Positions 2,323-22,598 are shown, counted from the stretch's first letter. The stretch: DNA of 64,000 nt from Candidatus Fervidifonticultor sextus (GCA_031459875.1 JAVKHQ010000007.1:12530-76529), one strand, 5' to 3'. The notes: generated by a model from the letters alone, not told the origin. Program-made: numbers and translations.

Positions 2323-3459
2323 ATGCTCCGCAAGGGCTACCGTCTGCCGTTTCGGCTGCTGGGCATCCCCATCTACCTGGACCCGACGTTCCTGATCATC
2401 CTCCCGCTGCTGGCCTGGGTCATCGGCAGCCGCCTGGACCTCTACATCCGGCTCTTCCGTCTGCCCGTGGACGCGCAGGCCCTGCAGGAGGGCCACACTC
2501 CCTACCTGCTGGGACTGGCCGCGGCGCTCGGGCTGTTCGCCAGCGTGCTCATCCACGAACTGGGGCACTCGGTCGTGGGACGCGGTTACGGGGTGCAGGT
2601 GAAGCGGATCACCCTGTGGCTGCTGGGCGGGGTCGCCCAGTTCGAGGAGATGCCGCGCCAGCGGGGCGCGGAGGCGGTCGTGGCCATCGCCGGGCCGCTG
2701 ACGAGTCTTGCGGTGGCTGCCGTCTGCAGCCTGGTCGCGGCCATCGTCCCGCCGGCCGCGCTGGCGGTCCGGTTCGTGCTCGGCTATCTCGTCTTCATGA
2801 ACGGGGCCCTGGCAGCGTTCAACATGCTGCCGGCGCTCCCCCTCGACGGCGGCCGGGTCCTGCGCTCCCTGCTGGCGCTGCGGATGCCACAACTGCGCGC
2901 GACCCAGATCGCGGCGGGGATCAGCAGCGCGATCGCCATCATGCTGGGGCTGGCCGGCTTCCTCACCTTCAACCTCTTTCTCATCCTGATCGCCTTCTTC
3001 GTCTACATGGCCGGGTCGGCCGAGACGCAGAACGCCCTGGTGGCGGAAATGCTGGAGGGGATCGGCGTCGAGGACCTGATGACGCGCGACGTCCAGACGG
3101 TGCCCATCGCGATGCCGATCGCTGACCTGATCCAGAAGATGCTGCGCGAGCGCCACCTCGGCTACCCGGTGGTGGACGCCGCCGGGAACCTGGCGGGCAT
3201 CGTCACGCTCAACGACCTGCAGGGCGCGGACGCCTCGGCGCCGGTGGAGCGGGTCATGTCGCCCACCGTGGCGACGATCTCCGTCCGGGGCAGCGCCCTC
3301 GAAGCGTTCGAGGCGATGAGCCGGAACAACTACGGGCGGCTGGTCGTGCTCGGTCCCGGCCGGCAGATGGTGGGCATCATCACCAAGACAGACCTGATCC
3401 GCGCGGTGCAGGTGCGCGTGGTGGGGCTGGCCATCCAGCCCGAACCGGCCAGGACCTGA
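2323..3459 (+). CDS. Site-2 protease (M50) with C-terminal CBS pair
   Basis: HELGH zinc motif, NMLPALPLDGG, hydrophobic segments, two CBS repeats; RBS AAGGAGG upstream. Confidence 0.92.
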   Translation: MLRKGYRLPFRLLGIPIYLDPTFLIILPLLAWVIGSRLDLYIRLFRLPVDAQALQEGHTPYLLGLAAALGLFASVLIHELGHSVVGRGYGVQVKRITLWLLGGVAQFEEMPRQRGAEAVVAIAGPLTSLAVAAVCSLVAAIVPPAALAVRFVLGYLVFMNGALAAFNMLPALPLDGGRVLRSLLALRMPQLRATQIAAGISSAIAIMLGLAGFLTFNLFLILIAFFVYMAGSAETQNALVAEMLEGIGVEDLMTRDVQTVPIAMPIADLIQKMLRERHLGYPVVDAAGNLAGIVTLNDLQGADASAPVERVMSPTVATISVRGSALEAFEAMSRNNYGRLVVLGPGRQMVGIITKTDLIRAVQVRVVGLAIQPEPART

Positions 3460-13763: not shown

Positions 13764-16700
13764 ATGGCAGGGCCTGTCCCCTCCACCTGGGATCGGGAGC
13801 GAGACGCCTGCGGGGTCGGGTTCGTGGCCGACCGCCGCGGCCGGCGCAGCCATGCCATCCTGCGGCGGGCCCTGGCCGCGGTGGCGGCGATGAGCCATCG
13901 CGGCGCGGTGGCCGCCGACGCCAAGACCGGCGACGGCGCGGGGGTCCTGACGCACATCCCTTACACCCTGCTGCGCCGAGACCTGCGCTTGAGGACACCC
14001 AACGCCGACCTCGGCCTGGGGATGGTCTTCCTCCCGCAGGAGACCGACGCCGCGCGCCGGGCGTGGATGCTGATCGCCTCCACCCTGGAGGAGCATCACG
14101 TGCCGGTCCTCGGCTGGCGGCTGGTGCCGCTCGACCCGACGGCGCTGGGCGAGCATGCCCGCCGGACCATGCCGGAGATCACCCAGGTCGTCGTCGGCCG
14201 GCCCAAAGGGCACGACGATGAGGCCTTCGAGCGCACCCTCTACCGCGTGCGCCGCCTGATCGAGCGCCGGGCCGCGGCCGAAGGGCTGGGTGTCTACATC
14301 CCGTCCTTCTCGCACGCGACGGTGGTCTACAAGGGCCTCTTCGTCTCGCCGCAGTTGCCGAAGTTCTACCCCGACCTGGAGAACCCGGCATTCGAGACGG
14401 CCATCGCGGTCTTCCACCAGCGCTACAGCACCAACACCTTCCCGTCGTGGCCGCTGGCCCAGCCGTTCCGCCTGCTGGCGCACAACGGCGAGATCAACAC
14501 GCTCCAGGGCAACGTGACCTGGATGACCGCGCGCGAGGCGCTGCTGCGCTCCCCCCTGTGGCCCGAAGGCCTCGGCCGCGTGCTGCCGGTCATCCAGCCC
14601 GGCGGCAGCGATTCCGCCATGCTGGACAACGTGCTGGAACTGTTGACGCGCAGCGGCCGGGACCTCCTGCACGCCATGCTCATGCTGGTGCCCAGCGCCT
14701 GGGAAGGCATCCCCGACCTCCCCGAGGCGGTGCGCGCCTTCTTCGAGTTCCACGGGTGCCTGGTCGAGCCGTGGGACGGGCCGGCGGCGCTGGCCTTCTC
14801 CGACGGCCGGTACGCCGCGGCCGCGCTGGACCGCAACGGGCTGCGGCCGGCTCGGTACGTGATCACGCGGGACGGGCTGGTCGTGGTGGCCTCGGAGGCG
14901 GGCGTGCTGGACGTCCCGCCGGACCAGGTCGTGGAGAAGGGCCGGCTGGGACCCGGGCAGGTCCTCGCGGTCGACACCTTCAAGGGGATTGTGCTGCACG
15001 ACGAGGAGGTCAAGGGCCTGCTCGCCATGCGCAGGCCCTACGCCGACTGGCTGGAGCGCCACCTCATCAGGCTGGGCGCGTGCCGTGCCGCCGCGCCGCT
15101 GGAGGTCCCGCCCGATCTTGTGGCGCAGCAACGGGTCTTCGGCTTCACCGGCGAGGACCTCCACCGGGTGCTGCGGCCCATGGTCGAGGAGGGTAAGGAC
15201 CCGGTCTTCTCCATGGGCGACGACACGCCGCTCGCGGCGCTGACCGACCGGCCGCGCACGCTGGCGGACTACTTCCGGCAGCGGTTCGCTCAGGTGACCA
15301 ACCCGCCCATCGACCCGCTGCGCGAACGCCTGGTCATGTCGCTGGCCACCTACCTGGGGCCGCAGCGCAGCCTGCTGGAGGAGGATCCCCAACACGCCCG
15401 GCTCGTCCACCTGCCCTCGCCGGTCCTGACGGCCGAGATGGTGGAGGCGATCCGCGCCCACAGCCCGGCGCCGGTGGCGCGGCTGTCGGTGCTGTTTCCG
15501 GCCGCCTGCGGCCCCGGGGGGATGCGCGCCGCGCTGGAGGCGCTGCTCGATGCGGCCGCACAGGCGGTGCGCGGCGGCGCGGGCATCCTCATGCTGAGCG
15601 ATCGGGGCGCCACCCCGGAGCGGGCGCCGATCCCGATGCTGCTGGCCGTCTCGGCGGTCCACCACGGGCTGATCCGGGCGGGCCTGCGCGCGCGGTGCGG
15701 CCTGCTGGTCGAAGCCGGCGAGGCCAAGGACATCCACCAGATCGCGTGCCTGATCGGCTACGGTGCGAGCGGGGTCTATTCCTACCTGGTCCACCAGACC
15801 ATCGCCGCCGAGGCCGCCGACCCCCACGAGGCGCACCGGCGCATCGAGGTCTGGCGGCAGGCGGTCGAAGCCGGCCTCCTCAAGATCATGTCGAAGATGG
15901 GGATCAGCACCCTCTCGGCCTACCACGGCGCGCAGATCTTCGAGGCGGTCGGCCTGGCGCAGGACGTGATCGACCGCTACTTTCCGGGAACGCCGTCGCG
16001 CCTGGGCGGCGCGACCCTGGAGGACCTGGCCGCCACCGTGCTGGCCCGCCACGCCGGGGCCTACCGGACCAGCGGCCCGGTGCTGGAGACCGGATGGCTG
16101 CGCTTCCGCAAGGGCGGAGAATACCACGCGTTCAACCCGGAGGTCATCAAGGCCATCCATCGGATCGCCCGCGGCGAGGGATCGGGCAACGGGGACCCGC
16201 ACCGCCACCTCGCCGCGCTGGTCGAGGGCCGGCCGCCGACGGCGGTCCGCGATCTGCTGGAGTTCGTCCCCGGCGATCCCGTGCCCCTCGAAGAGGTCGA
16301 ACCCGCCTCACAGATCATCAGGCGCTTCGTCATCTCGGCGATGTCCCACGGCGCGCTCTCCCTGGAGGCCCACCAGACCCTGGCCATCGCCGCCAACCGG
16401 ATCGGCGCGCGGTCGAACTCCGGGGAAGGCGGCGAGGATCCTGCCCGCTATGCGCCCCGGCCGGATGGCGACTCGGCGAACAGCACCATCAAGCAGATCG
16501 CCTCGGCGCGCTTCGGGGTCACCCCCGCCTACGTCCGCTCGGCGGTGGAGCTCGAGATCAAGATGGCCCAGGGCAGCAAGCCGGGCGAGGGCGGCCAGCT
16601 CCCGGGCCACAAGGTCAGCGAGGAGATCGCGCGCATCCGGCGGTCCCAGCCCGGCATCACGCTGATCTCCCCGCCGCCCCACCACGACATCTACAGCATC

Positions 16701-18329
16701 GAGGATCTGGCCCAGTTGATCTACGACCTCAAGGCGGTCCACCCGCAGGCCCGGGTGGCGGTGAAGCTGGTCGCCGAGACCGGTGTCGGGACCATTGCGG
16801 CCGGGGTCGCCAAGGGGTACGCCGACACGATCCAGATCAGCGGGCTGGACGGCGGGACCGGCGCCTCGCCGCTGGATTCGATCAAGCACGCGGGACTGCC
16901 CTGGGAAATCGGCCTGGCCGAGACCCAGCGGGTGCTAATCGATAGCGGCCTGCGGGGCCGGGTGCGGCTGCGGGTGGACGGCGGCCTGAAGACCGCGCGG
17001 GACGTGGTCATCGCCGCGGCGCTGGGGGCCGATGAGTTCGGCTTCGGCAGCGCTGTGGTGACCGCGCTGGGGTGCGTGATGGCCCGCCAGTGCCACCTCA
17101 ACACCTGCCCGGTCGGCATCGCGACCCAGCGCGAGGACCTGCGCCGCAAGTTTCCGGGCACGCCGGAGCACGTGATCAACTTCCTGGTCGGGCTGGCAGA
17201 GCAGGTCCGCAGGCTGCTCGCGGACCTGGGCGTGCGCCGCCTGGACGAGATCATCGGCCGGGCCGACCGGCTGCGTCCCAGGATGCCCGGACGGTCCGGG
17301 CCCGAAAGGCCAAGGCCGGCAGCCTCCGGGGAACGGGAGCGCCCACGCCTTGATGTCGCGGCACTGCTCGCGAGTTATCCTCCGCCGCACGACGACCGGC
17401 CGCGCCGTTGTCTGGCCGAGCGCAACGCGCGCCCCGACGAGCCCTATGACGAGACCCACCTGATGCCGCTGCTGCCGGCGATCGAAGCCGGCCAGCCCGT
17501 GGAACTCCACCTGCCGCTACGCAACGTGCACCGCGCGGTCGCTTCCAGGCTGGCCGGGGCGATCGCGTCCCGATGGGGGGACGCCGGGCTCCCGGAGGGG
17601 TCGGTGCGCCTCCACTTTACCGGTGCCGCCGGCCAGTCGTTCGGCGCCTTCCTCCTCCCCGGCATGCACCTGCACCTGGTCGGCGAGGCCAACGACTACG
17701 TGGGCAAGAGCATGGCCGGCGGCGAGATCGTCCTGACTCCGCCGGCGCCGCTGCGGGCCGAGAGCCACCGCCACGTGATCGCGGGCAACACGCTCCTCTA
17801 CGGCGCGACCGGGGGTCGGTTCTTCGCCGCCGGCCGGGTCGGCGAACGCTTCGCCGTGCGCAACAGCGGCGCGGTGGCGGTCGTCGAGGGCGCGGGCGAC
17901 CACGCCTGCGAGTACATGACCGGCGGGGTCGTGGTGGTCCTGGGCGAGACCGGCCGGAACTTCGGCGCGGGCATGACGGGCGGCGAAGCGTTCGTCTACG
18001 ACGACGCCGGGACCTTCCCCCACCGGTACAACACGCAGCTCGTGACGATCACCCGGCTGACCCCCGACGATGCCGACCGTCTGCGCGACCTCGTGGCGGC
18101 GCACCACCGGGCGACCGGCAGCCGCCGCGCGCGGATGCTGCTCGGCAACTGGGAAGCCCACACGATGAAGTTCTGGAAGGTTGCCCCCAAGGCCCCGGAC
18201 AAGCCGGCGCCGGGCCCCGGGACCTCCGGCCGGGCGCGCGAGGGGGCGATGCCGGCGGGGCCCGCGACTGAACCTGCCGGCCTCGCCGTGATCCGGCACA
18301 GAGGGCTATCGCCCCAAGCGTGGGCCTAG
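13764..18329 (+). CDS. gltB: Glutamate synthase large subunit
   Basis: DACGVGF N-terminal nucleophile Cys, HQRYSTNT, AHNGEINT, KMAQGSKPGEGGQLPG, CVMARQCHLNTCPVG 3Fe-4S motif, C-terminal GXGXG repeats. Confidence 0.97.
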   Translation: MAGPVPSTWDRERDACGVGFVADRRGRRSHAILRRALAAVAAMSHRGAVAADAKTGDGAGVLTHIPYTLLRRDLRLRTPNADLGLGMVFLPQETDAARRAWMLIASTLEEHHVPVLGWRLVPLDPTALGEHARRTMPEITQVVVGRPKGHDDEAFERTLYRVRRLIERRAAAEGLGVYIPSFSHATVVYKGLFVSPQLPKFYPDLENPAFETAIAVFHQRYSTNTFPSWPLAQPFRLLAHNGEINTLQGNVTWMTAREALLRSPLWPEGLGRVLPVIQPGGSDSAMLDNVLELLTRSGRDLLHAMLMLVPSAWEGIPDLPEAVRAFFEFHGCLVEPWDGPAALAFSDGRYAAAALDRNGLRPARYVITRDGLVVVASEAGVLDVPPDQVVEKGRLGPGQVLAVDTFKGIVLHDEEVKGLLAMRRPYADWLERHLIRLGACRAAAPLEVPPDLVAQQRVFGFTGEDLHRVLRPMVEEGKDPVFSMGDDTPLAALTDRPRTLADYFRQRFAQVTNPPIDPLRERLVMSLATYLGPQRSLLEEDPQHARLVHLPSPVLTAEMVEAIRAHSPAPVARLSVLFPAACGPGGMRAALEALLDAAAQAVRGGAGILMLSDRGATPERAPIPMLLAVSAVHHGLIRAGLRARCGLLVEAGEAKDIHQIACLIGYGASGVYSYLVHQTIAAEAADPHEAHRRIEVWRQAVEAGLLKIMSKMGISTLSAYHGAQIFEAVGLAQDVIDRYFPGTPSRLGGATLEDLAATVLARHAGAYRTSGPVLETGWLRFRKGGEYHAFNPEVIKAIHRIARGEGSGNGDPHRHLAALVEGRPPTAVRDLLEFVPGDPVPLEEVEPASQIIRRFVISAMSHGALSLEAHQTLAIAANRIGARSNSGEGGEDPARYAPRPDGDSANSTIKQIASARFGVTPAYVRSAVELEIKMAQGSKPGEGGQLPGHKVSEEIARIRRSQPGITLISPPPHHDIYSIEDLAQLIYDLKAVHPQARVAVKLVAETGVGTIAAGVAKGYADTIQISGLDGGTGASPLDSIKHAGLPWEIGLAETQRVLIDSGLRGRVRLRVDGGLKTARDVVIAAALGADEFGFGSAVVTALGCVMARQCHLNTCPVGIATQREDLRRKFPGTPEHVINFLVGLAEQVRRLLADLGVRRLDEIIGRADRLRPRMPGRSGPERPRPAASGERERPRLDVAALLASYPPPHDDRPRRCLAERNARPDEPYDETHLMPLLPAIEAGQPVELHLPLRNVHRAVASRLAGAIASRWGDAGLPEGSVRLHFTGAAGQSFGAFLLPGMHLHLVGEANDYVGKSMAGGEIVLTPPAPLRAESHRHVIAGNTLLYGATGGRFFAAGRVGERFAVRNSGAVAVVEGAGDHACEYMTGGVVVVLGETGRNFGAGMTGGEAFVYDDAGTFPHRYNTQLVTITRLTPDDADRLRDLVAAHHRATGSRRARMLLGNWEAHTMKFWKVAPKAPDKPAPGPGTSGRAREGAMPAGPATEPAGLAVIRHRGLSPQAWA

Positions 18330-18902
18330 GGTGCTGGCTTCAGCAGTGACCCTCTGCAGCTCCTCGGCGACACCTTCGGTTCCCGCCCGCGCCTGAAGGT
18401 AGGCCGAATCCAGATCCCTGTGGAGGGCCAGGATCGCGATGCACCACTCGCGGGCCTCGGTGTCGTTCCAGTGCACCACGGCATTGAGCCGATCCACGAG
18501 CAGGTCTTCGATGCCGATAATCTGGATAGGTCCTTCGTCGGTGTCCACGCGTGTCAGCCGTGCGGGATCACCCGCCAGGGGAGGGGCCGGGAAGTCCACA
18601 ACCACGTCGGTTTCGACGTGGACCCACGCCCCGTCGTGGCGCTCGAATCCCAGCAGGGGGAGGACCTCCGCGATCCGCCGGGCGGACACGCTGGTCACCA
18701 GGTCGACGTCCCGGGAAAGGTACGCGCCCCCTGTGTAGAACGAGACCGCCGAGCCGCCCACGACCACGACCGAATCTCCGGTCTTGCCCAACACCCTGGC
18801 AATGACAGCGGCAGTGCGGAGTTGGACCTCCAGCGGGCTGGCCAGGTCCTTCAGCGCGGCCAGGTCCGCCCGCGCCCGCACGAGCAGGGGGTCCTCGCTC
18901 AT
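18306..18902 (-). CDS. Nucleotidyltransferase, Pol-beta superfamily (DUF6036/AbiEii/MenT-like)
   Basis: VVVVGGSAVSFY...SRDVDLV motif; later EDLLVDRL; 198 aa; ATG overlaps the upstream small-ORF stop (ATGA). Confidence 0.75.
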   Translation of the reverse strand: MSEDPLLVRARADLAALKDLASPLEVQLRTAAVIARVLGKTGDSVVVVGGSAVSFYTGGAYLSRDVDLVTSVSARRIAEVLPLLGFERHDGAWVHVETDVVVDFPAPPLAGDPARLTRVDTDEGPIQIIGIEDLLVDRLNAVVHWNDTEAREWCIAILALHRDLDSAYLQARAGTEGVAEELQRVTAEASTLGPRLGR

Positions 18903-19117
18903 AGGGTGCGGGGCGAAGAGACTAACCGGTAGGCGCGGGGGCCCTGCTTCACCAGCCGGGTTGCAAACGCACGCCGCCCGATCCGCAGCGAGAGTGCGCG
19001 CAGGGCCGCCGCCTCGCCAGGATCCCGCGGACGGCGACGAATGCCCCGGGGACGCAACGCCCGCGCGGGCATCGCTTCCCGCCAGAGTGAGCGGATCAGC
19101 CTGCGCAGTTCGCTCAC
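18899..19117 (-). CDS. Small basic hypothetical protein (72 aa), putative partner/antitoxin of the nucleotidyltransferase
   Basis: GGAGGG 7 nt before GTG; TGA overlaps downstream ATG by 4 nt. Confidence 0.65.
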   Translation of the reverse strand: MSELRRLIRSLWREAMPARALRPRGIRRRPRDPGEAAALRALSLRIGRRAFATRLVKQGPRAYRLVSSPRTL

Positions 19118-19202
19118 CGCGCATCCCTCCCGGATGTTCGCCCCGGCTTCCTGTTCCTACGGTACCGGAAGGCGAGGGGCAACGACAACCTTCGGCCGGG
19201 CG

Positions 19203-19700
19203 TTACGGGCGCGACCCGGCAAGCCGCCGCGCCTCGATCGCCCGGTGCACCCGCGCCATCACCGGCACGCCGCCTGCGATGAGGACCACCTCGCTCGCCA
19301 GCAGGGGCGGGAAGAGCACGCCGAAGGGAACCCGCAGGATCACCGAGAGCATCAGGCTCACGGCCGCGGCGATCACCAGCGCGTAGGCCAGAGCGCCGAT
19401 CCACGGAGCGCGCCGGCCGCCGAGCACGCACAGGGCGGCACCGACCAGATTGGCCAGCGGCATGAAGCCCAGTTCCCAGGGACCCACCTGGGGACTGGTC
19501 AGATTGCTGAGGAAGTTGCCGACGACGAAAGCGGCCACCAGGTGCGGCCGCCAGATCACCAGCGACTTGAGCGCCTCCGGCAGGCGGAACTGCACCGGGC
19601 CGTAGCTGATGGGGCCGAAGGCGATCGTCAGCGCCGCATAGGCCGCGGCGACCACACAGACCTCGGCCAGCGCCCGCAGCCCCCCGGCCCTGGCGGTCAC
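19203..19700 (-). CDS. queT: QueT-family queuosine precursor transporter
   Basis: AAAYAALT...ISYGPVQFRLPEAL...GNFLSNL pattern; 4 nt downstream of queF. Confidence 0.82.
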   Translation of the reverse strand: MTARAGGLRALAEVCVVAAAYAALTIAFGPISYGPVQFRLPEALKSLVIWRPHLVAAFVVGNFLSNLTSPQVGPWELGFMPLANLVGAALCVLGGRRAPWIGALAYALVIAAAVSLMLSVILRVPFGVLFPPLLASEVVLIAGGVPVMARVHRAIEARRLAGSRP

Positions 19701-19704
19701 AAAC

Positions 19705-20178
19705 CTACTCCCGTCGGCCTGCCCCTGCGCCCGCCTCTCCGGCAGGGCTCCCGGCGCCGCCGTCGGGCCAGCGGACCGTGACGGTCGTGTGGACGCCGCC
19801 CCGGATGTTGTAGTCCAGCACGAGTTCCATCCATTTAGGGTCGGTGGCGCCGACCAGGTCCAGGAGGATCCGGTTGGCGGCGTGTTCCTGATAGATGCCG
19901 ACGTTGCGGTAGGAGTGCAGGTAGTATTTGAGCGACTTGAGCTCGAGCACGCGCTCGCGGGGGACGTACCGGACGGTGAGCCGGCCGAAGTCCGGCAGCC
20001 CCGACCACGGGCAGACGGCGGTGAACTCTTCGGTGGAAATCTCCACCACGGCGTCGCTGCCTGGATACTCGTAGGGAAAGGTCTCGAGGCGCGCGGCATT
20101 GATCCGGTCGTAGCCCTCGATGTCCCACCGCTGCTCGCCGACGGCGGCGCCGGCAGCCTGGCTCCCGGAGCGGCTCAT
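19705..20178 (-). CDS. queF: NADPH-dependent preQ0 reductase, type I (short) QueF
   Basis: EFTAVCPWSGLPDFG catalytic Cys/Asp, QueF motif ELKSLKYYL, RGG. Confidence 0.9.
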   Translation of the reverse strand: MSRSGSQAAGAAVGEQRWDIEGYDRINAARLETFPYEYPGSDAVVEISTEEFTAVCPWSGLPDFGRLTVRYVPRERVLELKSLKYYLHSYRNVGIYQEHAANRILLDLVGATDPKWMELVLDYNIRGGVHTTVTVRWPDGGAGSPAGEAGAGAGRRE

Positions 20179-20214
20179 CTCGACACCTCCCCGTACTGGC
20201 GGTCCCTTGCCAGC

Positions 20215-20243
20215 ATCATACGCGCCTCCCGGGGCAGCGGCAA
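20215..20243 (-). promoter_or_regulatory. Sigma70 promoter for queF-queT
   Basis: Minus strand TTGCCG-17 nt-TATGAT; RBS GGGGAGG downstream. Confidence 0.65.
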
Positions 20244-20336
20244 CGGGCGGGCTCCCGCCGATAGGCCCGGAGGGCCGAGACGACGAACCATGAGCAATGG
20301 TCTCTCACTGAGAGTGGGAACAGCGAGGAGGATGCC

Positions 20337-22598
20337 ATGGCGGTCATCGGCAGGCCCACACGCCGCGTCGAGGGTCGGGAGAAGGTCACCGGCGCGGCCC
20401 GGTACACCGAGGACCTCCGGCTGCCCGGGATGCTCCACGCCCGGCTGCTCCTGAGCCCGCATCCGCGCGCCAGGGTCGTCCACCTGGACCGGAAGGCCGC
20501 GCTGGCAGTCGCCGGCGTCACTGCGGTCGTCGCGGCGGAGGACCTGGCTCCCCTTGGCGGGGAGGCGGAAGACCTGCTGGCCGGCGCGCTGACGCGGTAC
20601 ACGGGCGAACCCGTGGCGGTCGTGCTGGGCGAGACCGAGGCCGCCGCAGCGGACGGGTTGGAAGCCCTGCGCGGAGGCACCCGCTTCGAGCCGCTGCCGG
20701 CGGTGCTTACGATCGAGGAGGCCGTGCGAGAGGGTGCGCCGCTCGTCCGCGACTCCGCCGACGTCGAAGAAGGCGACACCCAGGCCCATGCCACCGTCGC
20801 GGTCGAGGTCAAGAAAGAGGCACGGCCCAGCAACATCGCCGACCGCGTGACGTTCTCCCGCGGCGATGCGGCTGCGGCGCTGCAGCAGGCCGAGGTCGTC
20901 ATCCGCCGCACCTACACCACCTCGCGCATCCACCAGGGGTACATCGAGCCGCAGGCGACGGTGGCCGTGCCCGACCCGGCCACCGGCGAACTGGTGATCT
21001 ACACCTCGACGCAGGGCTCGTTCTACGTGCGGTCGGAGGTGGCCAGGGCGCTGGGACTGTCCCAGCAGCAGGTCCGCGTCGTCCCCATGACCGTGGGCGG
21101 GGGGTTCGGCGGCAAGATCCTGGTCTTTCAACCGCTGGCGGGCGCGCTGGCGCTGCTCCTGCGGAGGCCCGTGCGCCTCGTGCTGACCCGCCACGAGGAC
21201 TTCATGGCCGCCGAGCCCGGCCCGGCTACACAGATCGAAGTGGAACTGGGCGCCACGCGGGGCGGCGACCTGACCGCGCTGCGGGCCAGGATGTGGTTCG
21301 ACTCGGGAGCCTCGCCCGGGTCGCCGCTGTCGGTCGCCGGCCTGATGCTGGGGGGCTACTACCGGTTCCCGCACCTGCACATCGAGGCGGTCGAGGTGCT
21401 CACCAACAAACCCCCCGCGGGCGCCTACCGCGCGCCCGGCGTGCCGCAGGCGACCTTCGCCATCGAGTCGGCGATGGACGAACTCGCACAGAGGCTCGGA
21501 GCGGATCCCGTGGCCTTTCGATTGCGGCACGCCTCGGCGCCCGGCGATCCGATGCCGCACGGCCGGGCCTGGCAGAAGATGAGCCTGCGCGAGGTCCTCG
21601 ACGCGCTCGACCGCCATCCCGCGCGCCGGCGGCCCCGGGGTCCCGGTGAGGGCATCGGCATCGCCATCGGCGGCTGGCCCGGCGGGCTGGAGTCCGCCAC
21701 CGCCTGCGTGCGCGCCAACACCGACGGCACGTTCCAGGTGATCATGGGGGCGGTGGACATCACGGGCACGGCCACCACGATGGCCCTCATCGCCGCCGAG
21801 GTGCTGGGCGTGGCGCCCGAGCGGATCCGGGTCGTCACGGCGGACACCAGCCAGGCGCCGTACGCCGGCATGTCGGGCGGCAGCAAGATCACCTACACGG
21901 TCGGCAAGGCAGTGCGCCTGGCCGCCGAGGACGCGCGCCGCCAGATCCTGGCCATCGCGGCCAGCCATCTGGAAGCGCGGCTCGACGACCTGGAGATCTC
22001 AGACGGGATCGTCCGGGTCAAGGGGTCGCCAACGTCGGCCCTCCCCCTGGCCGAGATCGCCGCCATGAGCATGAAGTTCGGGGCCAAGTACCCGCCGGTC
22101 TTCGGGCAGGGGTCCACGGCCATCACCCGGCAGTCCCCGGGGTTCGCCGGCCACCTGGTCCGGGTCCGGGTGGACCGCGAGACCGGGGAGGTCCGCATCC
22201 TGGAGTATGTCGTCGTGCAGGATGTCGGCTTCGCCATCAACCCGGCCGCAGTCGAGGGCCAGATGGTCGGCGGCGCGGCCCAGGGCGTCGGGTGGGGGCT
22301 GCTGGAGCAGATGCGCTACGACGAATCCGGCAACCTGCTCACCGGAACGTTCGCGGACTACGCCCTGCCCAGGGCTCCCCAGGTGCCCAGGGTCGAGACG
22401 ATCATCGTCGAGGTCCCCTCCGAGGAAGGGCCGTTCGGGGCCAAGGGCGTCGGCGAGCCGCCGGTCATTCCCGCCGCCGCGGCGATCGCCAACGCCGTGG
22501 CCGATGCGATCGGAGCCCGGATCACGGCACTGCCGATCACGCCCGGGCGCATCTTCCTGGCGCTGCAGGACCAGGACGGCCGCCCGGCGACAGGATGA
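20337..22598 (+). CDS. Xanthine dehydrogenase/CoxL-family molybdopterin-binding subunit
   Basis: KVTGAARYTEDL, VGGGFGGK, GAYRAPG, GQMVGGAAQGVG, GAKGVGEP. Confidence 0.92.
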   Translation: MAVIGRPTRRVEGREKVTGAARYTEDLRLPGMLHARLLLSPHPRARVVHLDRKAALAVAGVTAVVAAEDLAPLGGEAEDLLAGALTRYTGEPVAVVLGETEAAAADGLEALRGGTRFEPLPAVLTIEEAVREGAPLVRDSADVEEGDTQAHATVAVEVKKEARPSNIADRVTFSRGDAAAALQQAEVVIRRTYTTSRIHQGYIEPQATVAVPDPATGELVIYTSTQGSFYVRSEVARALGLSQQQVRVVPMTVGGGFGGKILVFQPLAGALALLLRRPVRLVLTRHEDFMAAEPGPATQIEVELGATRGGDLTALRARMWFDSGASPGSPLSVAGLMLGGYYRFPHLHIEAVEVLTNKPPAGAYRAPGVPQATFAIESAMDELAQRLGADPVAFRLRHASAPGDPMPHGRAWQKMSLREVLDALDRHPARRRPRGPGEGIGIAIGGWPGGLESATACVRANTDGTFQVIMGAVDITGTATTMALIAAEVLGVAPERIRVVTADTSQAPYAGMSGGSKITYTVGKAVRLAAEDARRQILAIAASHLEARLDDLEISDGIVRVKGSPTSALPLAEIAAMSMKFGAKYPPVFGQGSTAITRQSPGFAGHLVRVRVDRETGEVRILEYVVVQDVGFAINPAAVEGQMVGGAAQGVGWGLLEQMRYDESGNLLTGTFADYALPRAPQVPRVETIIVEVPSEEGPFGAKGVGEPPVIPAAAAIANAVADAIGARITALPITPGRIFLALQDQDGRPATG

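What the first reader, a model, noticed from the sequence alone, without database searches (positions are those of the whole stretch)
18306..19117. Small ORF plus nucleotidyltransferase: candidate MenA/MenT-like toxin-antitoxin system
A 72-aa basic ORF (GGAGGG RBS, 7-nt spacer, GTG) ends in a TGA that overlaps the ATG of a 198-aa Pol-beta-fold NTase (VGGSAVS...RDVDLV). A possible own promoter (minus strand TTGTCG-18-TACCGT, about 19160-19189) lies upstream. The sizes and NTase motif recall M. tuberculosis MenA1/MenT1, a small antitoxin plus a tRNA-modifying NTase toxin. The small protein resembles nothing I recognise, so this may be a new antitoxin family or a new TA/defence type. It is easy to miss because a shadow ORF (18306-19124) masks it.
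Basis: partly seen in the sequence, partly recalled or inferred. Interest (0 to 1): 0.75.

Follow-up and report, generated by a model that had tools for sequence, protein, structure and literature searches.

The report
New nucleotidyltransferase toxin-antitoxin-like gene pair
A roughly 0.85-1 kb mobile cassette encodes a very basic, previously unrecognised 72-residue protein and an acidic enzyme shaped like the tuberculosis tRNA-modifying toxin MenT1. The two genes stay together in almost every genome that has them, so this is most likely an undescribed branch of a known type of bacterial toxin-antitoxin system.

Summary
On the minus strand, a 72-aa ORF (19117-18899; GTG start; GGGAGGG ribosome-binding site 7 nt upstream) ends in an ATGA overlap with a 198-aa Pol-beta-type nucleotidyltransferase (NTase; 18902-18306).

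- **The small ORF is a real gene.** Its protein sequence is conserved next to NTase homologues, with dN/dS of 0.17-0.33. A profile of it finds an adjacent same-strand ORF in 79 of 80 homologous loci from many phyla.
- **The partner looks like an antitoxin.** All partners share a basic R-[RK]-[RK]-P-R core. In relatives this core is fused to XRE, ribbon-helix-helix (RHH) or winged-helix DNA-binding domains.
- **The NTase resembles MenT1.** The AlphaFold model (pLDDT 93) is closest to a fungal NTase-like protein and to MenT1 (TM 0.52-0.58). It keeps GG...S-R-D-V-D, including the Ser that MenT/AbiEii toxins auto-phosphorylate. It fails the DUF1814 Pfam model and lies near DUF2204/DUF6036.
- **The cassette is mobile.** It is absent from the same queT/gltB junction in two congeners.
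- **The NTase decays first.** Two relatives keep the partner but have a deleted or truncated NTase.

Toxicity, substrate and neutralisation are untested. The NTase is unusually acidic, which leaves its target open.

The parts
19159..19188 (-). Promoter-like element TTGTCG-18 nt-TACCGT at the upstream edge of the cassette
   Evidence: Read directly from the sequence. Kept in L002 and L003, although L003 has an unrelated upstream gene. Not called by the generic sigma-70 scan. Function is inferred.
19125..19131 (-). Ribosome-binding site GGGAGGG, 7 nt before the GTG start
18899..19117 (-). 72-aa basic partner protein (pI 12.0, charge +15.5); putative antitoxin
   Evidence: ORF. Protein-level conservation beside NTase homologues. 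dN/dS of 0.17-0.33. A profile finds an adjacent ORF in 79 of 80 loci. No Pfam, NCBIfam, PADLOC or PDB match. Charge.
19025..19039 (-). Codons of the R27-R28-R29-P30-R31 core motif of the partner
   Evidence: P30 and R31 are invariant and R27 is at least 90% conserved in the 33 partners of alignment A2. In weaker partners the Pro or an Arg is replaced. The same motif occurs in stand-alone, RHH-fused, XRE-fused and wHTH-tail partners.
18306..18902 (-). 198-aa acidic Pol-beta-fold nucleotidyltransferase (pI 4.75, charge -11); putative toxin
   Evidence: DUF2204 scores 19.7 bits against a cut-off of 20.3; DUF6036 and PADLOC AbiEii hits are weak. AF2 model has pLDDT 92.9. Foldseek finds MenT1 at TM 0.52-0.58. 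hhalign against DUF1814 gives E 1.6e-4 and probability 50%.
18702..18758 (-). Catalytic motif G49-G50-S...S63-R64-D65-V-D67 (hG[GS]x14DhD, with Ser two residues before the first Asp)
   Evidence: G49 and D65 are invariant, D67 is present in 35/36, and position 63 is S or T in 35/36. The motif aligns with the AbiEii KGGT...R-x-S-E-D-L-D motif. It corresponds to MenT1 T39-R40-D41 (PMC11375011).
18351..19191 (.). Stretch homologous (79% identity) to the cassette in another genus (G007/L003), which sits in a different context there
   Evidence: blastn.
18194..19239 (.). About 1.04 kb present here and in G002 but absent from the same queT/gltB junction in congeners G003 and G004
   Evidence: At the empty sites, the queT and gltB stop codons abut or overlap.

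Best explanation
This is a self-contained, horizontally mobile two-gene module of the toxin-antitoxin type.

The 198-aa protein is an active-looking Pol-beta-fold nucleotidyltransferase. It is a distant, shortened relative of the AbiEii/MenT (DUF1814) toxins and belongs to the uncharacterised DUF2204/DUF6036 neighbourhood.

The 72-aa basic protein encoded just upstream, and translationally coupled through the ATGA overlap, is its cognate inhibitor. It binds the acidic NTase through a conserved segment built around R-[RK]-[RK]-P-R followed by an acidic-capped helix. This would either block the catalytic cleft directly, or, as MenA1 does with MenT1, also induce auto-phosphorylation of Ser63 next to the catalytic Asp65.

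When the partner is lost or degraded, the free NTase would nucleotidylate an essential cellular target and stop growth. By analogy the target is tRNA 3' ends.

Shown here:
- The gene pair is real.
- The two genes co-occur strictly.
- Partners in relatives have a modular DNA-binding-plus-motif architecture.
- The NTase is structurally similar to MenT1 and keeps its catalytic residues.
- The cassette is mobile.
- In decayed copies the NTase is lost first.

Inferred:
- Physical binding of the two proteins.
- Which protein is the toxin.
- The role of the motif.
- Regulation by phosphorylation.
- The substrate.
For: 1. The small ORF is conserved as protein next to NTase homologues, with ATGA or GTGA overlaps, and has dN/dS of 0.17-0.33.
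2. A partner profile finds its best hit in a directly adjacent same-strand ORF in 79 of 80 NTase loci: 14 upstream, 62 downstream, 3 with ambiguous frames. Of these, 71 have E < 1e-3. About 43 of the loci were not used to build the profile.
3. The reverse test in 41 related genomes finds the partner only where the NTase is or was present.
4. Partners carry the same basic motif on four scaffolds: stand-alone about 72 aa, N-terminal RHH (Arc/CopG), C-terminal XRE HTH_3, and the tail of a winged-helix protein. This is the classical antitoxin layout of a DNA-binding domain plus a toxin-binding segment.
5. One metagenomic protein fuses the NTase and the partner (P0057).
6. The NTase model has pLDDT 92.9. 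MenT1 is among the top Foldseek hits, with TM 0.52-0.58.
7. hhalign against DUF1814 aligns motifs I-III, with E 1.6e-4. The PADLOC AbiEii model touches 24 of 36 family members.
8. Catalytic G49, D65, D67 and D103, and S/T63, are conserved.
9. The cassette is absent from the same junction in G003 and G004, and lies elsewhere in G004 and G007. It is present in 6 of 41 relatives. Homologous pairs occur on plasmids.
10. G039 keeps the partner but has a 480-bp internal NTase deletion. G014 keeps the partner with a C-terminally truncated NTase.
11. The two proteins carry opposite charges across the family: NTase median pI 4.7, partner median pI 11.4.
Against: - No experiment shows toxicity, binding or neutralisation.
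- The window's own partner has no recognisable DNA-binding domain.
- The NTase fails the DUF1814 Pfam model. It lacks the +DxxD motif IV as defined and has Arg instead of the motif III Lys.
- The NTase is strongly acidic, whereas the MenT1 active site is described as electropositive (PMC10435456). A tRNA substrate is therefore uncertain.
- Foldseek TM of about 0.55 shows a shared fold, not a shared function. An aminoglycoside NTase (5kqj) also scores.
- The fused-protein model gave no usable contact information.
- Neighbouring genes are housekeeping genes, not defence islands.
Confidence: 0.6

Rival explanations
1. The pair is a non-toxic enzyme-regulator pair. The acidic NTase nucleotidylates a cationic small molecule or protein (for example an aminoglycoside-like antibiotic, a polyamine or a basic protein). 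The basic partner is its transcriptional regulator or regulatory subunit, and there is no growth arrest or addiction.
For: - The NTase family is consistently acidic (median charge -12), like enzymes that bind cationic substrates, whereas AbiEii domains of the same phylum are near neutral.
- ANT(2'')-Ia is among the structural hits.
- Many partners are XRE, RHH or wHTH transcription-factor types.
- The surrounding genes are housekeeping genes.
Against: - A plain repressor would not need a conserved non-DNA-binding motif shared across four unrelated scaffolds.
- The window's partner has no recognisable DNA-binding domain.
- The remaining features fit an addiction module better: translational coupling, tiny cassette size, insertion polymorphism, loss of the enzyme with retention of the partner, and MenT1 as the nearest toxin-like structure.
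Confidence: 0.2
2. The polarity is reversed, as in type VII (HEPN-MNT-like) systems. The basic small protein is the toxin, for example by binding nucleic acid. The NTase is an enzymatic antitoxin that neutralises it by nucleotidylation or sequestration.
For: - In HEPN-MNT systems the NTase is the antitoxin (established knowledge of type VII systems).
- The partner is extremely basic (pI 12) and could bind RNA or DNA.
Against: - The partner has no HEPN RX4-6H motif and contains no His at all.
- No hydroxyl residue is conserved near the motif.
- Partners fused to XRE or RHH domains look like regulators, not toxins.
- Two genomes have lost the NTase yet keep an intact partner ORF. This should be lethal if the partner were the toxin.
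Confidence: 0.07
3. The small ORF is not a gene. Either the true product is the 272-aa ORF (18306-19124), or the upstream 220 nt is a non-coding leader.
For: - An uninterrupted 272-aa ORF exists.
- The small ORF has only a modest GC3 signal (0.77, against 0.82-0.93 in neighbouring genes).
- The protein search found only one database protein (P0044) matching the 72-aa ORF, although callers did annotate the equivalent small ORF in several other loci.
Against: - The extension frame has GC3 of 0.66 and is broken by a stop in L003.
- NTase homologues are 190-206 aa long.
- The small-ORF frame is under purifying selection.
- It is found in 79 of 80 loci, including as a separate downstream gene.
Confidence: 0.02

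Closest known systems
MenAT1 (MenA1 Rv0078B / MenT1 Rv0078A) of Mycobacterium tuberculosis; PDB 8AN4, 8AN5, 8RR5
   Same: - A roughly 190-aa NTase toxin is paired with a roughly 70-aa partner encoded upstream that has no recognisable DNA-binding domain.
- MenT1 is among the best structural matches of the NTase model.
- The S63-R64-D65 triplet mirrors MenT1 T39-R40-D41, where T39 is the auto-phosphorylation site and D41 is catalytic (PMC11375011).
   Different: - The NTase does not match the DUF1814 Pfam model.
- It is strongly acidic, whereas the MenT1 cavity is electropositive.
- The partner shows no sequence similarity to MenA1.
- The partner relies on a basic R-R-x-P-R core, whereas MenA1 uses hydrophobic residues of a long helix (L12, L14, V19).
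AbiE (AbiEi/AbiEii; COG5340-DUF1814) abortive-infection toxin-antitoxin system
   Same: - It is a bicistronic NTase toxin plus DNA-binding antitoxin.
- Motifs I/II have unusually long spacing (x=14 here, x=15 in AbiEii) and a Ser two residues before the first Asp.
- Relatives of this module pair the NTase with a winged-helix protein.
   Different: - AbiEii proteins are longer, about 250-300 aa. They have KLxAaxxR and +DxxD motifs, which are only approximated here (R138-L-x-A; R162-D-L-D165).
- AbiEi is a two-domain protein of about 200 aa, not a 72-aa basic peptide.
- Anti-phage activity is not tested here, and no homologue was found in the phage collection.
Pfam DUF2204 (PF09970) and DUF6036 (PF19502), uncharacterised minimal NTases
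   Same: These are the best sequence-family matches. DUF2204 hits 29 of 36 family members and DUF6036 hits 20 of 36, at E <= 0.1.
   Different: - The window protein scores 19.7 bits, just under the DUF2204 cut-off of 20.3, and only over the N-terminal 40 residues.
- No function or partner is described for either family in the searched literature.
HEPN-MNT (type VII) toxin-antitoxin systems
   Same: They are two-gene modules that contain a minimal Pol-beta NTase.
   Different: - In those systems the NTase is the antitoxin, and the partner is a HEPN RNase with an RX4-6H motif.
- The partner here has no such motif and no His.
- The decay pattern here points to the NTase as the dispensable, harmful gene.

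Membership tests
DUF1814 / AbiEii / MenT NTase toxins | Match to Pfam PF08843 above its cut-off | tested here: not met
   No hit at E <= 1 for the window protein. Only 1 of 36 family members hits, at E 0.043. PF08843 is absent from the whole genome.
DUF1814 / AbiEii / MenT NTase toxins | Motifs I and II: hG[GS] followed after about 15 residues by DhD (PMC3985639) | tested here: met
   V48-G49-G50, then 14 residues, then D65-V-D67. G49 and D65 are invariant. hhalign aligns this segment to KGGT...SEDLD.
DUF1814 / AbiEii / MenT NTase toxins | Ser/Thr phospho-acceptor two residues before the first catalytic Asp (MenT1 T39, MenT3 S78; PMC11375011) | tested here: met
   S63 is S or T in 35 of 36 family members. 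Whether phosphorylation occurs is not testable here.
DUF1814 / AbiEii / MenT NTase toxins | Motif III KLxAaxxR (Lys surrounded by hydrophobic residues) | tested here: inconclusive
   D137-R138-L139-N-A141 is aligned by hhalign with the AbiEii E-K-v-x-A-l segment. R138 is invariant but is Arg, not Lys, and there is no trailing Arg.
DUF1814 / AbiEii / MenT NTase toxins | Motif IV +DxxD | tested here: not met
   The nearest pattern is R162-D163-L-D165 (+DxD). Only D165 is conserved across the family. This region lies outside the hhalign alignment.
DUF1814 / AbiEii / MenT NTase toxins | Fold similarity to solved MenT structures | tested here: met
   Foldseek hits 8an5_B and 8an4_A/B at E 1.3e-4 to 8.7e-4, TM 0.52-0.58; TglT/MenT3 scores lower.
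DUF1814 / AbiEii / MenT NTase toxins | Growth inhibition, and nucleotide addition to tRNA 3' ends | not testable with these tools
   Needs expression and tRNA 3'-end sequencing.
MenA1-type antitoxin | Sequence relationship to Rv0078B | tested here: not met
   Profile searches of the PDB sequences, which include the 8AN5 chains, with A2 and A5 gave no MenA1 hit at E <= 10.
Pfam DUF2204 / DUF6036 | Score above the family gathering threshold | tested here: inconclusive
   DUF2204 scores 19.7 bits against 20.3; DUF6036 scores 12.1 against 23.6. Family members hit one or the other model.
Type II-style toxin-antitoxin module (generic hallmarks) | Two small co-directional genes that overlap and are strictly linked | tested here: met
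   ATGA overlap. Adjacent partner in 79 of 80 loci.
Type II-style toxin-antitoxin module (generic hallmarks) | The antitoxin carries a DNA-binding domain for autoregulation | tested here: inconclusive
   Present in relatives: HTH_3 in 9 of 33 and Arc/CopG in 2 of 33, with wHTH in L006 and pBdHAGR1. Not detectable in the window's 72-aa protein.
Type II-style toxin-antitoxin module (generic hallmarks) | Patchy, mobile distribution | tested here: met
   Present in 6 of 41 relatives. Empty sites in G003 and G004. Different location in G007. Copies on plasmids.
Type II-style toxin-antitoxin module (generic hallmarks) | Toxicity of one product that is neutralised by the other | not testable with these tools
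   There is only indirect support: the NTase is lost or truncated while the partner is retained in G039 and G014.
HEPN-MNT (type VII) | The partner is a HEPN protein with an RX4-6H motif | tested here: not met
   The 72-aa protein contains no His and has no Pfam hit.

The most novel reading that the evidence does not exclude
The R-[RK]-[RK]-P-R segment is a portable NTase-inhibiting peptide. Evolution has grafted it onto at least four unrelated scaffolds (stand-alone, RHH, XRE, winged helix) to control one family of unusually acidic DUF2204/DUF6036-type NTases.

It would act by inserting its arginines into the acidic catalytic or ED...D cleft, and possibly by triggering Ser63 auto-phosphorylation.

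The enzyme's cellular target would be a cationic molecule or a basic protein rather than tRNA. That would make this a mechanistically distinct NTase toxin system, not a MenAT copy.
Probability: 0.25. Interest if true: 0.75.

Novelty: new variant of a known kind. Interest (0 to 1): 0.55.

Why it matters
NTase toxins of the AbiE/MenT type are among the most abundant toxin-antitoxin and abortive-infection modules. Only DUF1814 members have been studied.

- This pair links the uncharacterised DUF2204/DUF6036 NTases to that biology.
- It defines a new partner family with no Pfam or PDB relative. Gene callers miss it in some high-GC genomes: the protein search found only one database match to this 72-aa ORF.
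- It offers a simple, testable motif for how a toxin might be neutralised.
- The same motif on four DNA-binding scaffolds is a clean case of modular antitoxin evolution.
- Cultured carriers exist (the Nitratidesulfovibrio vulgaris DP4 megaplasmid and a Bdellovibrio plasmid), so the prediction can be tested directly.
- The acidic nature of the enzyme raises the possibility of a substrate other than tRNA.

Tried and rejected
- **Complex geometry:** I folded a natural NTase-partner fusion (P0057) with an unpaired alignment. The model had pLDDT 79 and pTM 0.74. The tool returns no coordinates or PAE, so I could not read where the motif docks.
- **PDB sequence searches:** the NTase profile found only a weak 5uvd hit. 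The partner profiles found nothing relevant.
- **Literature:** no paper on DUF6036/DUF2204 biology. The NetFlax query found nothing.
- **Phage collection:** no NTase homologue.
- **Rfam:** nothing credible in 17800-20600, so there is no known RNA element here.
- **Promoter and terminator scan:** no calls.
- **Target-site duplication:** a 15-nt direct repeat brackets the cassette. The empty sites do not clearly carry a single copy, so I leave it as unexplained.
- **Defence-island context:** rejected, because the neighbouring genes are housekeeping genes.
- **The 272-aa ORF as the true product:** considered and rejected.
Full report
**What is in the window.** The window is 70% GC and comes from an Armatimonadota metagenome-assembled genome. 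A near-identical locus is titled Candidatus Fervidifonticultor octavus. The minus strand carries, in order:
- queF (20178-19705);
- a QueT-like membrane protein gene (about 19690-19203);
- an intergenic stretch;
- a 72-aa ORF (19117-18899);
- a 198-aa ORF (18902-18306).

The 198-aa ORF's 3' end overlaps the 3' end of the convergent gltB (13764-18329) by 24 nt.

- GGGAGGG at 19131-19125, a 7-nt spacer and a GTG start.
- An ATGA stop/start overlap.
- VVGGSAVS...SRDVDLV in the second protein.
- TTGTCG-18 nt-TACCGT at 19188-19159.
- A 272-aa 'shadow' ORF that is the NTase frame run back to an ATG inside the RBS spacer.

**The small ORF is a gene, and the 272-aa ORF is not.**
- NTase homologues in the databases are 190-206 aa long.
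- The N-terminal extension frame has GC3 of 0.66, against 0.77 for the small-ORF frame. It contains a stop in the homologous cassette of another genus (L003).
- The small-ORF frame is conserved as protein upstream of NTases that are 98%, 82%, 66% and 61% identical. Each has an ATGA or GTGA overlap.
- Nei-Gojobori dN/dS for the small ORF is 0.17-0.33 over seven sequences.
- The protein search found only one database protein matching the 72-aa ORF: P0044, which lies next to NTase P0002. Callers did annotate the equivalent small ORF in several other loci.

**The two genes form a strict pair across phyla.**
- A scan of one genome per species found 127 NTase relatives. The best 80 loci span Armatimonadota, Bacillota, Chloroflexota, Acidobacteriota, Nitrospirota, Thermodesulfobacteriota, Gemmatimonadota, Planctomycetota and others.
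- An HMM of the partner core finds its best hit in an ORF directly adjacent to the NTase, on the same strand, in 79 of 80 loci. Of these, 14 are upstream, 62 are downstream and 3 lie in ambiguous long open frames. E is below 1e-3 in 71 loci. The one miss is a locus whose contig ends about 125 nt after the NTase gene.
- About 43 of these loci did not contribute to the HMM, so the test is not circular. No non-adjacent ORF reached E < 0.09.
- In the reverse direction, a search of 41 related genomes with the partner profile finds it only in the five genomes that carry the close NTase, plus G039.
- In 1.84 billion cluster representatives, only 215 match the partner profile at E <= 1e-3. This is a rare, specific family.

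**The partner has an antitoxin-like, modular architecture.**
- P30 and R31 are invariant and R27 is nearly so in the 33 aligned partners. The core reads R-[RK]-[RK]-P-R-[DS]-x-E-E. It is followed by helices and, in the short form, by a terminal G-P-R-x-Y-R-L strand. In weaker partners the Pro or an Arg is replaced.
- The same core occurs in four settings:
  - in stand-alone proteins of about 72 aa, as in the window;
  - after an N-terminal ribbon-helix-helix domain (L029, L036, L037; Arc/CopG hits);
  - before a C-terminal XRE HTH_3 domain (9 of 33; E down to 1e-11);
  - as the extreme C-terminal tail (R-x-R-P-R-x-x-G-K-P-L) of winged-helix proteins that precede more distant NTases (L006 and Bdellovibrio plasmid pBdHAGR1).
  
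- A DNA-binding domain plus a short toxin-binding segment is the standard build of type II antitoxins (established knowledge).
- The window's own protein has no detectable DNA-binding domain. It also has no Pfam, NCBIfam, PADLOC or PDB relative, MenA1 included.
- One metagenomic protein (P0057, 310 aa) is a head-to-tail fusion of the NTase and an XRE-type partner.

**The enzyme.**
- The window protein scores 19.7 bits on DUF2204 (cut-off 20.3) and weakly on DUF6036. Across 36 family members, DUF2204 is hit by 29, DUF6036 by 20 and AbiEii (PF08843) by 1.
- PADLOC's AbiEii model PDLC02291 touches 24 of 36, over the N-terminal motifs only. No NCBIfam model names the family.
- The AlphaFold model is confident (pLDDT 92.9, pTM 0.88).
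- Its best Foldseek matches in the PDB are:
  - a fungal NTase-like protein (5uvd, E 5e-5);
  - MenT1, alone and in the MenAT1 complex (8an5_B, 8an4_A/B; E 1.3e-4 to 8.7e-4; TM 0.52-0.58);
  - then ANT(2'')-Ia, the AbiEi C-terminal domain, TglT/MenT3, JHP933 and TM1012.
- A profile-profile comparison with 12 DUF1814 domains from the same phylum gives E 1.6e-4 (probability 50%) over 111 columns. It aligns:
  - GGSA with KGGT;
  - Y-L-S-R-D-V-D with R-x-S-E-D-L-D;
  - V-V-V-D-F with V-K-V-D;
  - D137-R138-L-x-A with E-K-v-x-A (motif III).
- Conservation within the family: G49, D65, D133 and R138 are invariant. D67, E132, D137 and D165 are conserved in at least 35 of 36. D103 is D or E. Position 63 is S or T in 35 of 36.
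- In MenT1 the equivalent T39-R40-D41 holds the phospho-acceptor and the catalytic Asp. MenA1 neutralises MenT1 both by sequestering it and by inducing T39 auto-phosphorylation (PMC10435456, PMC11375011).
- The AbiEii motif definitions (hG[GS]x15DhD, KLxAaxxR, +DxxD) come from PMC3985639. The window enzyme meets the first, approximates the second, and does not meet the third as written.

**Mobility and decay.**
- The NTase is found in only 6 of 41 related genomes.
- Congeners G003 and G004 have the same convergent queT/gltB junction with abutting or overlapping stop codons and no cassette. The window has about 1.04 kb extra there, at 18194-19239.
- G004 and G007 carry the cassette elsewhere. 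Homology between the window and the G007 copy runs only from 19191, immediately upstream of the TTGTCG hexamer, to 18351 (79% identity). The unit therefore brings its own upstream region.
- In a sister clade the cassette sits 50-60 nt from a divergent tRNA-Ser(CGA) gene.
- Homologous pairs occur on plasmids of cultured bacteria. N. vulgaris DP4 pDVUL01 has DVUL_RS15740 plus a 78-aa protein containing VRRKPR, and there is a pair on a Bdellovibrio plasmid. None was found in the phage collection.
- Two relatives show decay in which the NTase goes first:
  - G039 retains an intact partner gene but has a clean 480-bp internal deletion of the NTase gene relative to a 96%-identical locus.
  - G014 retains the partner, but its NTase ends at residue ~121.
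- No locus with adequate flanking sequence had an NTase without a partner. This asymmetry is what one expects if the NTase is the harmful component.

**How it most likely works (inference).**
- The coupled genes produce partner and NTase together.
- The basic partner (pI 12.0, +15.5) binds the acidic NTase (pI 4.75, -11) through the Arg-rich core. The charge asymmetry holds across the family: median pI 4.7 for NTases against 11.4 for partners, whereas canonical AbiEii domains are near neutral.
- Candidate docking sites are the catalytic carboxylates (D65, D67, D103) and the family-specific E132-D133...D137 helix.
- Binding would block catalysis and may, as in MenAT1, push S63 to attack bound NTP.
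- Free NTase would nucleotidylate an essential target.
- tRNA 3' ends are the default guess by analogy. The strongly acidic surface makes this less secure than for MenT1, whose cavity is electropositive. A cationic substrate remains possible.

**Rivals.**
- A non-toxic enzyme-regulator pair is the main alternative (0.2). The acidity, the ANT(2'') structural hit and the transcription-factor-type partners favour it. The shared non-DNA-binding motif, the mobility and the decay pattern count against it.
- A type VII-like reversed polarity is unlikely (0.07). The partner has no HEPN motif and no conserved nucleophile, and it persists intact where the NTase has been lost.
- A spurious small ORF is effectively excluded (0.02).

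**Relation to earlier notes of this scan.** Several earlier AI notes describe DUF2204/DUF6036-type NTases with other small partners, also with MenT1 as the nearest solved structure. I reached the MenT1 result independently. Those notes suggest that this is one branch of a larger unrecognised superfamily, which tempers the surprise. None of the summaries returned mentions the R-R-x-P-R partner or its four scaffolds.

**Verdict.** The module is a new variant of a known kind: an NTase toxin-antitoxin module with a new NTase subfamily and a new antitoxin-like family. Function is unproven. Confidence in the toxin-antitoxin reading is 0.6, and interest is 0.55.

**Limits.**
- The structure tool returns no coordinates, so the fused-protein model could not be used to locate the interface.

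Noticed in passing
L118 (G039:C1:66300-70300), 1754-1800; compare L096 6001-6600: A relative keeps an intact partner gene next to tRNA-Ser, but its NTase gene carries a clean 480-bp (160-codon) internal deletion. The flanks are 96% identical to an intact locus, while the partner region is only 89.5% identical.
   Followed up: yes
L012 (G014), 3006-3389: The NTase is truncated after residue ~121, losing the ED..DRLxA helix and the C-terminal domain. The upstream partner is intact.
   Followed up: yes
L009 3624-3713, L010 3625-3713, L011 3591-3679: In a sister clade the cassette lies 50-60 nt from a divergently oriented tRNA-Ser(CGA) gene. This could mark an integration hotspot. MenT3 is reported to prefer tRNA-Ser, which is probably a coincidence.
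   Followed up: partly
P0057 (310 aa, metagenome cluster representative): A natural single-chain fusion of the NTase (N-terminal) with an XRE-type RRRRPR partner (C-terminal). It may be a true fusion or a frameshift or assembly artefact.
   Followed up: partly
window 18222-18236 and 19188-19202: A 15-nt direct repeat ACCTYCGGCCGGGCG (14 of 15 identical) brackets the cassette. It could be a target duplication or chance in 70% GC DNA. The empty sites in G003 and G004 do not clearly show a single copy.
   Followed up: partly
window 18306-18329: The 3' ends of gltB (+) and the NTase gene (-) overlap by 24 nt. The C-terminal tail of gltB differs from that of congeners lacking the cassette, so the insertion apparently remodelled the ends of both gltB and queT.
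   Followed up: partly
window 19203-20178 (-): A queF plus QueT-like transporter operon lies upstream of the cassette. No preQ1 riboswitch or other Rfam family was found at E <= 1 in 17800-20600.
   Followed up: partly
L094 2851-3682 (N. vulgaris DP4 pDVUL01); L095 2639-3501 (Bdellovibrio pBdHAGR1): Cultured, genetically tractable bacteria carry homologous pairs on plasmids, all annotated as hypothetical proteins. The Bdellovibrio partner is a winged-helix protein ending in RERQRPRRTGKPL.
   Followed up: partly
P0038 (243 aa): An NTase homologue carries an N-terminal excisionase-type HTH_17 domain fused directly to the enzyme. This is a different way of joining DNA binding to this NTase family.
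   Followed up: no
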